From assembly GCA_965220845.1 (NCBI GenBank), contig CBDCRA010000005.1, forward strand, positions 896,016 to 960,015: a stretch of DNA of 64,000 bases, in the 5' to 3' direction. A program made the translations under genes and the position numbers. The notes beneath the pieces were generated by a model, which saw only the letters and a program-made list of their open reading frames with translations, made no database searches and was not told where the DNA came from. Each line of letters begins with the position of its first letter. Positions within the stretch are counted from its first letter, which is position 1. Of this stretch, positions 11,236 to 12,331 are shown in pieces. The stretch comes from Candidatus Multivorans sp. (GTDB lineage Bacteria > Acidobacteriota > Thermoanaerobaculia > Multivoradales > Multivoraceae).

Positions 11236-11838
11236 TCAGGGGTTGTAGGTTGCGGGTGAAACGGACGGGTTTCGTACCGTCCGCGGAATCGGTGGGGGGC
11301 CGCCGGTGAAGCTCAGAACGACGCCGTCCCAGGAGCGGGCGAAGACGCGGGAGCTCATGCGCAGCCGGCCGAGAGAGGGGTCGTCGATGACGAGTTCGTC
11401 GCCGGTGCTGCGGATGACGACGAAGTGGTCGCCGTGGACGTGAGCGATCGCGGGAAGCGGGACCTCGCGGAGCCGATGGACCGGAAGCCGGAGCCCCTGG
11501 CTCGTCACGCCCCGTTCCTCGGCGGCTTTCTTGAGCGCCAGGAGGCTGGTGCCGTCCGGTCCGGTTCCGGTCGCGATCTCGAGCTCGGCGAGCGTCACGT
11601 CCTGGATGCCCCAGTGGTCCAGGACCATCTTCAGGGCCGCCGGACCGCAGTCGGAGCGCCTTTGCTGGCGGACCACCTCGCCCGGGGCGGGCGCCGATGG
11701 GTCGAGCGCGGCGGCCCAGGCGAGCCGGTCCATGGTCGGCCCCAGCGTCCGGGCAGCGACCGTCACGAGACCGGCCGCAACCAGCAGGCCGGCGGCGGCC
11801 GCGTGCGGGGGACGGATCCGGAACCGCTCAGAGCGCAT
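11236..11838 (-). CDS. stand-alone membrane-anchored peptidase C39 (bacteriocin-processing) domain protein
   Basis: Start ATG 11838 (MRSERFRIRPP... then TM helix AAAGLLVAAGLVTVAA). C39 catalytic motif QQRRSDCGPAALKMVLDHWG and downstream His in HVHGDHFVVI. Not fused to an ABC transporter. Confidence 0.8.
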   Translation of the reverse strand: MRSERFRIRPPHAAAAGLLVAAGLVTVAARTLGPTMDRLAWAAALDPSAPAPGEVVRQQRRSDCGPAALKMVLDHWGIQDVTLAELEIATGTGPDGTSLLALKKAAEERGVTSQGLRLPVHRLREVPLPAIAHVHGDHFVVIRSTGDELVIDDPSLGRLRMSSRVFARSWDGVVLSFTGGPPPIPRTVRNPSVSPATYNP

Positions 11839-12331
11839 CGGTTCCGGACTCCAGAAAAGCGCGCCAGGCGGTCTCCGGACGTTCGCCGGTGGCGACCGCG
11901 AGGATTCGGGACTGTTCGTCGACCAGGAACACGAGCGGCACGTGGACCACGCCGAAGCGCCTCGAGACGGAGGCGTCCGGGTCGGCGATGGCGAGAAGGC
12001 CGTCGCCGTTCGCTTCCGGCTCATGGGCGCCGGCGACGACCGCGATCAGGTCGAAGGCCGGATCTTCGGTCCGGTTCAGGCGGCGCAGGGTGGTGATGGT
12101 TCGGTCGCAGTTGCCGCAGCCGGCCCTGGCGAACGTGACTACCCGCAGCCGTCCCGGAGCGGCCGGCAGGGTCTCGCCGTCGGCGAAGCCCGGGAGGCCG
12201 GGGAACGTCGCGCCGACTTCCGGGCGCTGGGCCTGCCGGGCGCGGATTCCGGACTCGAACCAGAGGAGACCTCCGAGGGGGACGAGGACGGCCGCGACGA
12301 CGGCGGCCAGGGCCAGGCGGCGGCGGTTCAT
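11828..12331 (-). CDS. TlpA/ResA-like thiol:disulfide oxidoreductase (thioredoxin fold, CGNC active site), signal-anchored
   Basis: Start ATG 12331 (MNRRRLALAAVVAAVLVPLGGLLWF). CxxC motif AGCGNCDRT. First gene of the transcription unit, after the 12646..12684 terminator. Confidence 0.8.
   Translation of the reverse strand: MNRRRLALAAVVAAVLVPLGGLLWFESGIRARQAQRPEVGATFPGLPGFADGETLPAAPGRLRVVTFARAGCGNCDRTITTLRRLNRTEDPAFDLIAVVAGAHEPEANGDGLLAIADPDASVSRRFGVVHVPLVFLVDEQSRILAVATGERPETAWRAFLESGTDAL

What the first reader, a model, noticed from the sequence alone, without database searches (positions are those of the whole stretch)
11236..12331. Stand-alone TM-anchored C39 peptidase paired with a TlpA-like thioredoxin
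The C39 domain retains the catalytic Cys (SDCGPAAL) and His (HVHGDHFVVI) but has only a single N-terminal TM helix and no ABC modules. Its start overlaps the upstream CGNC thioredoxin gene by 11 nt (translational coupling). This predicts periplasmic or extracytoplasmic leader removal combined with disulfide handling, a topology different from cytoplasmic-face C39 domains of ABC exporters.
Basis: partly seen in the sequence, partly recalled or inferred. Interest (0 to 1): 0.7.

Follow-up and report, generated by a model that had tools for sequence, protein, structure and literature searches.

The report
Membrane-anchored C39 peptidase–thioredoxin peptide-maturation operon
A free-standing, membrane-anchored leader-cutting protease and a partner thioredoxin head a conserved operon whose small peptides carry an export signal followed by a double-glycine leader, which suggests that these peptides are matured outside the cytoplasm rather than inside an ABC exporter.

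Summary
On the minus strand, 12331..11828 encodes a 167-aa membrane-anchored CGNC thioredoxin-fold protein. Its last 11 nt overlap a 200-aa protein (11838..11236) made of one N-terminal hydrophobic helix plus a complete C39 peptidase domain, with no ABC modules. Gln58, Cys64, His138 and Asp153 are conserved, and the predicted fold superposes on the double-glycine protease LahT150 at 1.4 Å.

Four small peptide genes follow directly. Two of them carry a Sec-type signal peptide, a spacer, a canonical double-glycine leader and a hydrophobic core with 2 or 4 cysteines. After them come two novel ABC-2-like permeases, a DrrA-like ATPase and two Yip1/YknW-like proteins.

The pairing is widespread. A thioredoxin gene sits directly upstream of the C39 gene in 65 of 74 stand-alone loci from Acidobacteriota, Ignavibacteria and Bacteroidota, and the two are fused once.

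Extracytoplasmic leader removal is supported by charge bias, the fusion, the partner's fold and the signal-bearing substrates, but no experiment has tested it. Periplasmic C39 enzymes are already known (FapD) or proposed (NapP). The new elements are the membrane anchor, the thioredoxin coupling and the bipartite precursors, so I rate this a new variant of a known kind. The redox direction, the peptide function and the route of one signal-less peptide remain open.

The parts
12645..12685 (-). Terminator-like hairpin followed by UUUUG, lying between the upstream SNF2-family helicase gene and the operon.
   Evidence: RNA fold gives -37.9 kcal/mol, z = -8.4 against shuffles. The sequence was read.
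11828..12331 (-). Membrane-anchored thioredoxin-fold protein of 167 aa, with CGNC at Cys72/Cys75 and a cis-Pro loop (VPLVFLVD).
   Evidence: Pfam Redoxin 28.1 bits against a cut-off of 26.6; 31 of 45 homologues match Redoxin. AF2 model pLDDT 83. Best PDB matches are CcmG, ResA, Etrx1/2, DsbE and StoA. Cys72, Cys75 and Pro132 are invariant.
11236..11838 (-). Stand-alone C39 cysteine peptidase of 200 aa. Residues 13-29 form the hydrophobic anchor and residues ~55-180 the catalytic domain (Gln58, Cys64, His138, Asp153).
   Evidence: Pfam 107.8 bits. Sequence matches to LahT150, PCAT1 and ComA in the PDB. AF2 pLDDT 87.8. Foldseek rmsd 1.4 Å to 6mpz. Catalytic residues conserved.
10993..11220 (-). 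pepP: 75-aa secreted Pro-rich peptide with 2 Cys, a signal peptide (MKLRILFVSALFLFLAGAALA|TP) and a strong Shine-Dalgarno sequence (AAGGAG). It has no GG motif.
   Evidence: Homologues in 32 loci at the same position.
10806..10982 (-). pepA: 58-aa peptide with a classical N-terminal double-glycine leader and no signal peptide. MNTASTMIAILPEADLAAVTGG | 36-aa hydrophobic core with 2 Cys.
   Evidence: Conserved in 13 loci, always without a signal peptide.
10414..10728 (-). pepB: 104-aa precursor made of a signal peptide, a spacer, a GG leader (LATTEMAVLGGG, residues 41-52) and a 52-aa core with 4 Cys. An alternative start lies at 10749.
   Evidence: Homologues in 5 loci.
10039..10335 (-). pepC: 98-aa precursor made of a signal-peptide-like N-terminus, a spacer, a GA leader (LSDQAAEAIQGA, residues 42-53) and a 45-aa Gly/Ala-rich core with 2 Cys.
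   Evidence: Homologues in 5 loci.
8298..9956 (-). Polytopic membrane protein of 552 aa, a putative ABC-2-like permease from a small uncharacterised family.
   Evidence: No Pfam, NCBIfam or PDB hit. Conserved in the cluster. The family has only 51 representatives among 1.84 billion proteins. Distant members give weak ABC2_membrane_5 hits.
6471..8060 (-). Paralogous polytopic membrane protein of 529 aa.
   Evidence: 29% identical to the 552-aa protein, E 4e-44. Conserved in the cluster.
5630..6502 (-). ABC ATPase of the DrrA / ABC-2 type. The start is uncertain (6502 or 6418).
   Evidence: Pfam ABC_tran 107 bits. NCBIfam drrA 213.7 bits, below its cut-off of 312.
4854..5633 (-). Yip1/YknW-like membrane protein. 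The likely start at 5633 makes an ATGA overlap with the ATPase stop codon; the longest ORF begins at 5771.
   Evidence: Pfam Yip1 41.6 bits. NCBIfam YknW_fam 68.6 bits, below its cut-off of 110. The start was reasoned from the ORF translation.
4110..4808 (-). Second Yip1-domain membrane protein, 232 aa.
   Evidence: Pfam Yip1 56 bits. Conserved in the cluster.

Best explanation
This is an extracytoplasmic maturation module for ribosomal peptides. Steps 1 to 5 below are all inferred. The only things shown here are the sequence features, the family conservation and the predicted folds.

1. Most precursors are exported or membrane-inserted by the Sec pathway through an N-terminal signal peptide. 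This places the spacer, the double-glycine leader and the core on the outer face of the inner membrane.
2. The C39 peptidase is held on that same face by its N-terminal helix (N-in, C-out). It recognises the amphipathic leader (L-12, E/D-8, L/M-7, V/I-4) and cuts after G-2 G/A-1, releasing a hydrophobic core of about 44 aa.
3. The co-translated, membrane-anchored CxxC thioredoxin acts in the same compartment. Most likely it forms or proof-reads the disulfide that links the Cys near the core's N-terminus to the Cys near its C-terminus. Alternatively it keeps the lone catalytic Cys64 of the peptidase reduced.
4. The downstream ABC-2-type transporter (two novel permeases and a DrrA-like ATPase) and the Yip1/YknW-like proteins expel the membrane-active products or protect the producer from them. 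B. subtilis YknWXYZ does this for the SDP toxin.
5. The products are probably multi-peptide, class-II-like membrane-active bacteriocins.
For: Active C39 domain:
- Pfam 107.8 bits.
- Cys64, His138 and Asp153 are invariant and Gln58 is at least 90% conserved in 62 sequences.
- The AF2 model (pLDDT 87.8) matches LahT150 (6mpz) at 1.4 Å over 125 columns. It matches the non-catalytic HlyB C39-like domain only at 2.6 Å and 16% identity.

Outside-facing topology:
- 86 of 89 homologues have one N-terminal hydrophobic 17-mer. The N-flank holds 4.2 Lys/Arg and the C-flank 2.2; N exceeds C in 68 and is lower in 10.
- The natural fusion P0092 has the order TM-Trx(CPYC)-C39, with RRK before the helix and DEK after it.
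- The thioredoxin model's best PDB matches are all extracytoplasmic, anchored oxidoreductases: CcmG, ResA, Etrx, DsbE, StoA and FetE.

Functional coupling:
- A thioredoxin-like ORF lies directly upstream on the same strand in 65 of 74 stand-alone loci spanning several phyla.
- The 11-nt overlap is conserved.

Substrates:
- ORFs with a signal-peptide-like N-terminus plus an internal GG-leader motif make up 59 of 581 ORF frames within 3 kb downstream of the C39 gene, against 8 of 6099 elsewhere in the same loci. They occur in 45 of 74 loci.
- Core cysteine counts are mostly even: 2 Cys in 38, 4 in 15 and 6 in 2 of 69 peptides. The first Cys is typically at position ~8 and the last ~4 residues from the C-terminus.
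- The bona fide PCAT loci recovered in the same scan have classical leaders without a signal peptide.

Transport and immunity module:
- The order Trx, C39, peptides, permease(s), ABC ATPase, Yip1 is conserved.
- There is a YknW-family hit of 68.6 bits. YknWXYZ protects against SDP (PMC4887032, abstract seen).

Precedent: FapD is an active periplasmic C39 peptidase (PMC5557850).
Against: - No dedicated topology or signal-peptide predictor, and no experiment, was available. The signal-peptide calls are heuristic (hydrophobicity plus charge).
- pepA (10982..10806) has a canonical GG leader but no signal peptide, and this is conserved in 13 loci. Its route to an outside-facing peptidase is unexplained.
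- pepC has no clean signal-peptidase site (my reading of the sequence).
- The window thioredoxin's own flanking charges are ambiguous: RRR before the helix and three Arg after it.
- The CxxC motif varies (CGNC, CPHC, CRVC, CPYC and others), so the redox direction cannot be read from sequence.
- No outer-membrane export component was found in the cluster.
- 9 of 74 loci lack the thioredoxin.
- The GG-leader family models reach only sub-threshold scores on the peptides.
Confidence: 0.6

Rival explanations
1. Split PCAT. The C39 domain faces the cytoplasm, as in peptidase-containing ABC transporters. It removes GG leaders on the inner face and hands the cores to the downstream ABC transporter for export. 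The thioredoxin acts separately.
For: pepA has a classical N-terminal GG leader and no signal peptide, conserved in 13 loci. An ABC ATPase and permeases are always in the cluster. The closest NCBIfam matches of the C39 domain are PCAT families (NHLM_micro_ABC1, 83 bits).
Against: The charge bias favours N-in, C-out. The TM-Trx-C39 fusion would then place a CcmG/ResA-like thioredoxin in the cytoplasm. Most adjacent GG peptides carry a signal peptide ahead of the leader. The transporter is of the ABC-2/DrrA type, not the type-I exporter fold that PCATs use.
Confidence: 0.12
2. Same outside-facing topology, but the thioredoxin serves the enzyme rather than the substrates. It is a TlpA/ResA-like reductant that keeps the single catalytic thiol (Cys64) of the peptidase reduced in the oxidising periplasm.
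For: The window C39 protein has only one cysteine, the catalytic one (sequence). The genes overlap by 11 nt and are fused once, which suggests a 1:1 physical partnership. The fold matches are to reducing oxidoreductases (CcmG, ResA).
Against: The cores carry conserved, even numbers of cysteines at both ends, which calls for disulfide chemistry on the substrate. Nine loci have CPHC, the motif of the oxidant DsbA (the DsbA comparison is from my own knowledge). Six to eight Bacteroidota and Ignavibacteria clusters add a MauE-family membrane protein. From my own knowledge, MauE partners with MauD in disulfide formation. No CcdA/DsbD electron donor was seen in the cluster. I did not see any mention of a dedicated thioredoxin for FapD in the passages I read.
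Confidence: 0.2
3. The peptides are not antimicrobials. They are structural or cell-surface subunits (fibre, pilus or amyloid-like, as in the Fap and Fil systems), or membrane-resident small proteins whose assembly needs C39 processing.
For: The characterised or annotated periplasmic-type C39 enzymes serve the Fap amyloid system (PMC5557850) and a putative Fil pilus system (NCBIfam FilB). One peptide's signal-peptide/GG region hits FilA (13.4 bits) and DUF6160 (19.8 bits), both below threshold. The cores are Gly/Ala-rich and hydrophobic.
Against: No usher, FapF-like or other outer-membrane assembly gene is present in the cluster. The C39 protein scores far below the FapD and FilB cut-offs (45.6 against 330, and 21.4 against 475). 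Several divergent short peptides sit next to an ABC/Yip1 module that resembles toxin-immunity pumps. The weak hits point to class IIb/IIc bacteriocin families.
Confidence: 0.1
4. The domain is a degenerate, non-catalytic C39-like domain acting as a chaperone or receptor, as in HlyB-type transporters.
For: None beyond general precedent (3zua and 7sgr appear low in the fold-search list).
Against: The Gln/Cys/His/Asp set is conserved across the family. The fit is much closer to the active peptidases (1.4-1.9 Å, 28-34% identity) than to the HlyB C39-like domain (2.6 Å, 16%).
Confidence: 0.02

Closest known systems
PCAT/AMS transporters and their excised peptidase domains (PCAT1, ComA, LahT150)
   Same: Same C39 fold and catalytic residues, with 28-34% identity and 1.4-1.9 Å rmsd. 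Same leader consensus on the substrates: L-12, E-8, L-7, I/V-4, G-2, G-1.
   Different: No ABC transmembrane or ATPase domains. An N-terminal anchor predicts the opposite face of the membrane. Most substrates carry a signal peptide ahead of the leader, whereas the PCAT loci from the same scan have leaders without one.
FapD, the periplasmic C39 peptidase of the Pseudomonas Fap amyloid system (PMC5557850)
   Same: A free-standing, catalytically active C39 peptidase working outside the cytoplasm, delivered by a Sec signal.
   Different: The window protein scores 45.6 bits against the FapD model's cut-off of 330. There is no FapF channel and no amyloid subunits. The FapD paper reports no canonical GG leader in Fap proteins and an unknown target, whereas here canonical GG-leader peptides are adjacent. 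FapD is described as residing in the periplasm via a Sec signal peptide; here the helix looks like an uncleaved anchor. In the passages I read, no thioredoxin partner is mentioned for FapD.
Neisseria Nap island: the stand-alone C39 NapP, GG peptides NapA-C and the FapF-like NapF (PMC11798529)
   Same: A stand-alone C39 gene next to several small GG-motif, bacteriocin-like peptides. The authors' model places cleavage in the periplasm. How the peptides cross the inner membrane is unknown there, as it is for pepA here.
   Different: The Nap peptides are cationic. I found no mention of signal peptides in that text. The island has a FapF-like outer-membrane channel and no thioredoxin, ABC-2 or Yip1 genes. 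Sequence relatedness to NapP was not tested.
TlpA / ResA / CcmG (DsbE) / MauD extracytoplasmic thiol-disulfide oxidoreductases
   Same: An N-terminal anchor and a thioredoxin fold with CxxC and a cis-Pro loop. These are the best structural matches. Pfam Redoxin is just above its cut-off.
   Different: Far below the NCBIfam cut-offs for ResA, DsbE and MauD (about 14 bits against 123-189). The CGNC motif is unusual. The genomic partner is a peptidase rather than cytochrome or copper-protein maturation genes.
Disulfide-containing GG-leader bacteriocin clusters with dedicated thioredoxins, such as the glycocins/sublancin with BdbA/BdbB (PMC12457901 for glycocins; the sublancin details are from my own knowledge)
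   Same: A double-glycine leader, a C39 peptidase and dedicated thiol-disulfide oxidoreductases in one cluster, yielding a disulfide-stapled product.
   Different: In those clusters the C39 domain is part of a PCAT and acts on the cytoplasmic face, and the peptides have no signal peptide. No glycosyltransferase is present here.
B. subtilis SDP toxin and the YknWXYZ pump (PMC4887032; the details of SdpC maturation are from my own knowledge)
   Same: A peptide toxin with a Sec signal that is processed a second time outside the cell and contains a disulfide. Protection comes from an ABC pump that includes a Yip1-family protein (YknW). The window's Yip1 protein hits YknW_fam at 68.6 bits.
   Different: SDP maturation uses SdpA and SdpB, not a C39 peptidase. 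YknYZ is a MacB/FtsX-type pump, not ABC-2. The YknW hit is below its cut-off of 110.

Membership tests
Peptidase family C39 (Pfam PF03412) | Match to the family model above the curated cut-off | tested here: met
   107.8 bits against a cut-off of 22, E 4.9e-31, covering residues 55-178.
Peptidase family C39 (Pfam PF03412) | Catalytic Cys and His, plus the Asp and the oxyanion-hole Gln | tested here: met
   Cys64, His138 and Asp153 are invariant and Gln58 is at least 90% conserved in 62 sequences. The Cys and His columns align with PCAT1 and LahT150.
Peptidase family C39 (Pfam PF03412) | Papain-like fold of the active double-glycine peptidases | tested here: met
   AF2 pLDDT is above 93 over residues 60-180. 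Foldseek gives 1.4 Å and target TM-score 0.82 to 6mpz. The model coordinates could not be opened, so the inter-residue geometry of the triad was not measured directly.
Peptidase family C39 (Pfam PF03412) | Cleavage after Gly-Gly or Gly-Ala of a leader peptide | not testable with these tools
   Candidate substrates with the consensus leader are adjacent. Cleavage itself needs biochemistry.
PCAT / AMS bacteriocin ABC exporter (TIGR01193, TIGR03796) | C39 domain fused to an ABC transmembrane domain and a nucleotide-binding domain | tested here: not met
   The protein is 200 aa. Only positions 7-130 of the 710-position model are matched, at 83 bits against a cut-off of 853. Homologues are 170-240 aa.
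FapD (NF058616) | Score above the equivalog cut-off, and a fap operon context | tested here: not met
   45.6 bits against 330. No FapF-like or amyloid-subunit genes in the cluster.
FilB, putative pilus-system C39 peptidase (NF050078) | Score above the cut-off | tested here: not met
   21.4 bits against 475.
TlpA/ResA/CcmG-like redoxin (Pfam PF08534) | Thioredoxin fold with CxxC at the start of helix 1 and a cis-Pro loop | tested here: met
   Redoxin 28.1 bits against 26.6. Cys72, Cys75 and Pro132 are invariant. In the AF2 model, strand 62-69 is followed by helix 73-88. The top PDB matches are CcmG and ResA.
TlpA/ResA/CcmG-like redoxin (Pfam PF08534) | Extracytoplasmic location through an N-terminal anchor | tested here: inconclusive
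   A hydrophobic helix spans residues 3-34. The window protein's flanking charges are ambiguous. The fusion P0092 has a clear N-in charge pattern. No dedicated predictor was available.
TlpA/ResA/CcmG-like redoxin (Pfam PF08534) | Reductase function fed by CcdA or DsbD | not tested
   No CcdA or DsbD gene was noticed in the cluster. The NCBIfam ResA, DsbE and MauD models score about 14 bits, far below their cut-offs.
Class II double-glycine-leader bacteriocin precursors (TIGR01847, PF10439) | Leader consensus ending in GG, GA or GS | tested here: met
   Regex and position counts. pepA has LPEADLAAVTGG, pepB LATTEMAVLGGG and pepC LSDQAAEAIQGA.
Class II double-glycine-leader bacteriocin precursors (TIGR01847, PF10439) | Leader located at the extreme N-terminus of the precursor | tested here: not met
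   In pepB, pepC and most family peptides the leader is internal. The cleavage site is at a median position of 53, behind a signal-peptide-like segment. Only pepA meets this feature.
Class II double-glycine-leader bacteriocin precursors (TIGR01847, PF10439) | Family-model score above the cut-off | tested here: not met
   TIGR01847 scores 13.6-13.7 against 15.7, TIGR03949 15.9 against 21.5 and PF10439 16.6 against 27.1, on peptides from related loci. The window peptides give no hit.

The most novel reading that the evidence does not exclude
The window belongs to an undescribed, multi-phylum class of ribosomal peptides (Acidobacteriota, Ignavibacteria, Bacteroidota and others). These peptides have a bipartite targeting and maturation signal: a Sec signal peptide followed by a double-glycine leader. 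They are matured on the periplasmic face by a dedicated pair of a membrane-anchored C39 peptidase and a thioredoxin. This would be a PCAT-independent route to disulfide-stapled, bacteriocin-like peptides in diderm bacteria, with its own new family of ABC-2-like permeases.
Probability: 0.5. Interest if true: 0.75.

Novelty: new variant of a known kind. Interest (0 to 1): 0.62.

Why it matters
Double-glycine leaders are textbook cytoplasmic signals, read by the peptidase domain of an ABC exporter.

- **Processing compartment.** If this operon works as inferred, the same leader and peptidase chemistry has been moved to the outer face of the membrane, downstream of Sec and coupled to a dedicated thioredoxin. 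That would show that leader removal and export can be uncoupled.
- **Periplasmic C39 substrates.** FapD's target is still unknown, and for NapP it is unclear how the peptides cross the inner membrane. This family offers clear candidate substrates that could be tested in vitro.
- **Genome mining.** Mining tools anchor on PCATs or on N-terminal GG leaders. They would miss these peptides in Acidobacteriota (the window's relatives carry MAG isolate names that look sponge-, coral- and sediment-derived) and in Bacteroidota. The adjacent peptide genes are unannotated or unnamed in the sources I saw.
- **A handle for experiments.** The thioredoxin/C39 pair, fused in one case, gives a simple system for asking how a thiol protease survives in an oxidising compartment.

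Tried and rejected
Readings considered and rejected:
- **Non-catalytic C39-like domain.** Rejected because the catalytic residues are conserved and the fit to active peptidases is closer.
- **Polymorphic-toxin C39 domain (Tox-PL-C39, CdiA-CT).** These appear in the fold search only at 2.4-7.4 Å and 21-23% identity. The protein is not the C-terminus of a large toxin.
- **Membership in FapD or FilB.** Scores are far below the cut-offs.

Searches that gave nothing:
- An exact-sequence look-up of the window's C39 protein found no record.
- A PDB sequence search with the thioredoxin returned only a spurious GATA zinc-finger hit. The fold search was needed instead.
- The permeases have no Pfam, NCBIfam or PDB sequence hit. 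The word-indexed homologue search found only close relatives. The exhaustive profile search found a tiny family with only sub-threshold ABC2_membrane_5 hits.
- The window peptides have no Pfam or NCBIfam family.
- Rfam gave no hit in the window.
- The sigma-70 promoter scan gave no site, and the terminator scan missed the strong hairpin at 12645-12685 because its T-run is short.
- Literature searches found no paper on a thioredoxin-C39 pair or on precursors with a signal peptide plus a GG leader. 'Candidatus Multivorans' and 'peptidase C39' + 'vitamin K epoxide reductase' returned nothing. 'FilB' + 'C39' and the 'DUF6160/filABCDEF/fil operon/FilF' search returned almost only unrelated hits. 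The library holds open-access papers only.

Methods that worked less well:
- A simple additive GG-site score discriminated poorly in Gly/Ala-rich peptides: 45% of ORFs near the C39 gene reached the threshold, against 22% elsewhere. The stricter regex comparison is therefore the one to rely on.
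Full report
**1. Observation**

- The thioredoxin gene (12331..11828, 167 aa) begins MNRRRLALAAVVAAVLVPLGG and contains CGNC.
- The C39 gene (11838..11236, 200 aa) starts inside the last codons of the thioredoxin gene. The shared sequence is ATGCGCTCTGA, an 11-nt overlap.
- Pfam Peptidase_C39 matches residues 55-178 at 107.8 bits (E 4.9e-31, cut-off 22), so this is not a chance match.
- Pfam Redoxin matches the upstream protein at 28.1 bits against a cut-off of 26.6.
- The NCBIfam PCAT models are matched only over their N-terminal ~130 positions, so there are no ABC modules.

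**2. Is the peptidase intact?**

- The sequence aligns with LahT150 (6mpz), PCAT1 (4ry2) and ComA (3k8u). The Cys of SDCGPAAL and the His of DHFVV fall in the catalytic columns.
- In a 62-sequence family alignment, Cys64, His138 and Asp153 are invariant and Gln58 is at least 90% conserved. All four are invariant in a 15-sequence alignment across phyla.
- An AlphaFold2 model has mean pLDDT 87.8, and above 93 across residues 60-180.
- The model superposes on LahT150 at 1.4 Å over 125 columns with 32% identity. It fits the non-catalytic HlyB C39-like domain only at 2.6 Å and 16% identity.
- I could not open the model coordinates to measure triad distances.

**3. Is the partner a TlpA-like thioredoxin?**

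- The PDB sequence search was uninformative.
- 31 of 45 family members match Redoxin.
- Cys72, Cys75 and the cis-Pro (Pro132, in VPLVFLVD) are invariant.
- The AF2 model (pLDDT 83.1) best matches CcmG, ResA, Etrx1/2, DsbE, StoA and FetE. By their PDB descriptions and my own knowledge, these are membrane-anchored or lipoprotein oxidoreductases that work outside the cytoplasm.
- The protein is far below the NCBIfam cut-offs for ResA, DsbE and MauD. It is a divergent member of the fold class, not one of those named proteins.

**4. Where does it come from, and how widespread is it?**

- The database holds about 100 clusters of homologues, almost all 170-240 aa and stand-alone.
- A scan of one genome per species returned 80 loci.
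- The window is 99% identical in its C39 protein to a 'Candidatus Multivorans' MAG (Thermoanaerobaculia, Acidobacteriota).
- Relatives occur in other Acidobacteriota, Ignavibacteria, Bacteroidota, Latescibacterota and Poribacteria MAGs.
- The nine most distant loci (L077-L085) differ from the rest. L077-L082 carry ABC ATPase-like matches downstream of the C39 match and I treated them as genuine PCAT-type transporters. L083-L085 have no ABC match and only fragmentary C39 hits. All nine were set aside as an outgroup.

**5. Is the pairing conserved?**

- A thioredoxin-like ORF ends within 700 nt upstream on the same strand in 65 of 74 stand-alone loci.
- In loci L006-L025 the thioredoxin frame ends 7 nt past the C39 start, which is the same 11-nt overlap.
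- In a more distant acidobacterial locus the overlap is 4 nt.
- One contig encodes a single 327-aa protein with the order TM helix, thioredoxin (CPYC), C39 (P0092/L001). With only one hydrophobic segment, the two domains must share a compartment.
- The CxxC motif varies by lineage: CGNC in 37, CPHC in 9, and CRVC, CSAC, CPYC and others in the rest.

**6.

Downstream of the C39 gene, on the same strand and with short gaps, lie the following genes.
- pepP (11220..10993): a signal peptide followed by a Pro-rich peptide with 2 Cys.
- pepA (10982..10806): MNTASTMIAILPEADLAAVTGG | a 36-aa core with 2 Cys.
- pepB (10728..10414): signal peptide, spacer, LATTEMAVLGGG | a 52-aa core with 4 Cys.
- pepC (10335..10039): signal-peptide-like N-terminus, spacer, LSDQAAEAIQGA | a 45-aa core with 2 Cys.
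- Two paralogous polytopic membrane proteins (9956..8298 and 8060..6471; 29% identical).
- A DrrA-like ABC ATPase (6502..5630).
- Two Yip1-domain proteins (5633..4854 and 4808..4110). The first hits the YknW family at 68.6 bits, below its cut-off of 110.

The leaders place L at -12, E/D at -8, L/M at -7, V/I/L at -4, G at -2 and G/A at -1. This is the classical double-glycine consensus, which I know from the literature (for example Dirix et al. 2004, cited in PMC8939145).

The gene order thioredoxin, C39, small ORFs, permease (1 to 3 copies), ATPase, Yip1 recurs throughout the Thermoanaerobaculia loci. A shorter version (thioredoxin, C39, peptide, then ABC and/or Yip1) occurs in Ignavibacteria and Bacteroidota.

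**7. Are the signal-peptide + GG precursors more than chance?**

I used a simple rule for a signal peptide (net positive N-terminal region and a 12-residue window with mean Kyte-Doolittle hydropathy of at least 2.0) and a regex for the leader, required to start at residue 19 or later.

| Region | ORF frames | Signal-peptide-like | Signal peptide + internal GG leader |
|---|---|---|---|
| Within 3 kb downstream of C39, same strand | 581 | 152 | 59 |
| Elsewhere in the same loci, both strands | 6099 | 210 | 8 |

- The motif is found in 39% of signal-bearing ORFs next to the C39 gene and in 3.8% elsewhere. It occurs in 45 of 74 loci.
- Examples from other phyla are unambiguous. One is MKKAISLLMLFLVVLTLLGPVSAPPKMSAQ-LDSNEMMQITGG-KTTCGG... 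from a Bacteroidota MAG.
- Core cysteine counts are mostly even: 2 in 38, 4 in 15 and 6 in 2 of 69 peptides. The first Cys is typically near core position 8 and the last about 4 residues from the C-terminus, which fits an end-to-end disulfide staple.
- The GG peptides near four of the outgroup PCAT-type loci (L078, L079, L080, L082) have ordinary leaders at the extreme N-terminus and no signal peptide.
- Family models for GG-leader bacteriocins hit the internal leader region only below threshold. The peptides therefore belong to no curated family.

**8. Topology**

No dedicated predictor was available. The evidence is indirect but points one way.
- 86 of 89 C39 homologues have one hydrophobic 17-mer upstream of the catalytic Cys. 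The 15 residues before it hold 4.2 Lys/Arg on average and the 15 after it hold 2.2. N exceeds C in 68 and is lower in 10. This predicts N-in and C-out.
- The fusion protein has RRK before the helix and DEK after it.
- The thioredoxin's structural relatives are extracytoplasmic.
- Most substrates carry their own export signal ahead of the leader.
- A thiol protease can work in the periplasm. FapD has a Sec signal, is functional when given an OmpA signal, and needs its catalytic Cys (PMC5557850).

**9. Mechanism proposed (all steps inferred)**

- Sec exports or inserts the precursors.
- The anchored C39 peptidase cleaves after GG or GA on the outer face.
- The co-translated thioredoxin handles the cysteines in the same place.
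- The ABC-2-like transporter and the Yip1/YknW-like proteins remove the hydrophobic products from the producer's membrane, or protect the producer. This is by analogy with YknWXYZ and the SDP toxin (PMC4887032).
- The permease family is very small, with 51 representatives at E ≤ 0.001 among 1.84 billion proteins. It shows only sub-threshold similarity to ABC2_membrane_5.

**10. Open points**

- pepA has a classical leader and no signal peptide, and this is conserved in 13 loci. How it reaches an outside-facing enzyme is unknown. Its leader is acidic and its only Arg is near the C-terminus. A YidC-type N-out insertion is therefore conceivable, but that is speculation.
- The direction of the redox chemistry is unknown.
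  - For oxidation: the CPHC variants, and a MauE-family membrane protein at the 3' end of six to eight Bacteroidota and Ignavibacteria clusters.
  - For reduction: the CcmG/ResA-like fold, and the fact that Cys64 is the peptidase's only cysteine. The reduced target could be the enzyme itself.
- No outer-membrane component was seen in the cluster.
- The biological role of the peptides (antimicrobial, structural or signalling) is untested.

**11. Comparison with what is known**

- The domain is a member of family C39, with all defining sequence and fold features met.
- It is not a PCAT: the fusion feature was tested and is not met.
- It is not FapD or FilB: the scores are far below the cut-offs.
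- It works most like the proposed periplasmic C39 enzymes FapD and NapP (PMC5557850, PMC11798529).
- It differs from them in four ways: it is membrane-anchored, it is coupled to a thioredoxin, it sits next to canonical GG-leader peptides that mostly carry signal peptides, and it comes with an ABC-2/Yip1 module rather than a FapF-type channel.
- Thioredoxin-type oxidoreductases alongside GG-leader peptides are known from glycocin and sublancin clusters. There the C39 domain is part of a cytoplasm-facing PCAT.
- I found no paper in the searchable library that describes the thioredoxin-C39 pair or the bipartite precursors. That library covers open-access papers only.

**12. Verdict**

- It is a new variant of a known kind rather than a categorically new one, because extracytoplasmic C39 peptidases already have one experimental precedent and one proposed case.
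- Interest is 0.62.

Noticed in passing
window 10806-10982 (-): pepA has a classical N-terminal double-glycine leader and no signal peptide, unlike its neighbours. It is conserved in 13 loci, always directly after the Pro-rich pepP gene, and has no obvious Shine-Dalgarno sequence. How it reaches an outside-facing peptidase is unexplained.
   Followed up: partly
window 10993-11220 (-): pepP is a signal-peptide-bearing, Pro-rich peptide with 2 Cys (…PCSDLPFPGPGRPYPLPWPFPSPWPGPTDQCIPIPLPF) and no GG motif. It is always the first gene after the C39 gene, in 32 loci. Longer versions carry a conserved ELAVY-PCGC segment. Its role is unknown.
   Followed up: partly
window 12645-12685 (-): A perfect 15-bp GC-rich hairpin followed by UUUUG (-37.9 kcal/mol for the folded 55-nt stretch, z = -8.4) sits between the SNF2-family helicase gene and the thioredoxin gene. 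It is probably the helicase gene's terminator and marks the start of the operon. The consensus terminator scan missed it.
   Followed up: yes
L067 10091-10552; also L054, L056, L057, L060, L066, L069, L070: A MauE/DoxX-family membrane protein (Pfam MauE, 78 bits) closes the cluster in six to eight Bacteroidota and Ignavibacteria loci. It may be a membrane redox partner for the CPHC thioredoxin. It is absent from the window's cluster.
   Followed up: partly
window 8298-9956 and 6471-8060 (-): The two permease paralogues belong to a very small family with no Pfam, NCBIfam or PDB match: 51 representatives among 1.84 billion proteins. Only distant members give sub-threshold ABC2_membrane_5 hits. 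The copy number varies from 1 to 3 between loci.
   Followed up: partly
P0086 (291 aa; seen on 65 contigs); compare L004 8001-8878: Some gene calls join the C39 protein in frame to the downstream signal-peptide/GG peptide. In L004 the two genes overlap by 4 nt in different frames. This could be a real enzyme-substrate fusion in some genomes, or a calling artefact.
   Followed up: no
L033+L045, L026+L046, L021+L047, L027+L048, L057+L062; L050 (two C39 copies): Several genomes carry two divergent copies of the C39 cluster, some without the thioredoxin. This suggests paralogous peptide systems within one organism.
   Followed up: no
L002/L046, about 9880-10710 (-): In one thioredoxin-less locus, ORFs that look like an IS3-family transposase (judged by eye) lie just downstream of the single GG peptide gene, and the ABC/Yip1 genes are missing. 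The cluster may have been truncated by an insertion.
   Followed up: no
peptide from L045 (9003-9287), residues 12-56: The signal-peptide/GG-leader region gives sub-threshold hits to NCBIfam FilA (13.4 bits) and Pfam DUF6160 (19.8 bits against 27). The uncharacterised FilA/FilB system may use the same logic of a signal peptide followed by a C39 cleavage site.
   Followed up: no
window 1248-2222 (+) and 2698-3813 (-): Two signal-peptide-bearing proteins of 324 and 371 aa, with no Pfam match, flank the 3' end of the operon. I did not compare them with each other.
   Followed up: no
window 12775-16725 (-): A 1316-aa SNF2-family helicase (SNF2-rel_dom 203 bits, Helicase_C 71 bits) lies directly upstream. 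Its N-terminal part contains a Cys/His-rich segment (CDCPQFAGGTACGHIW) that looks SWIM-like to me. It appears unrelated to the operon.
   Followed up: partly
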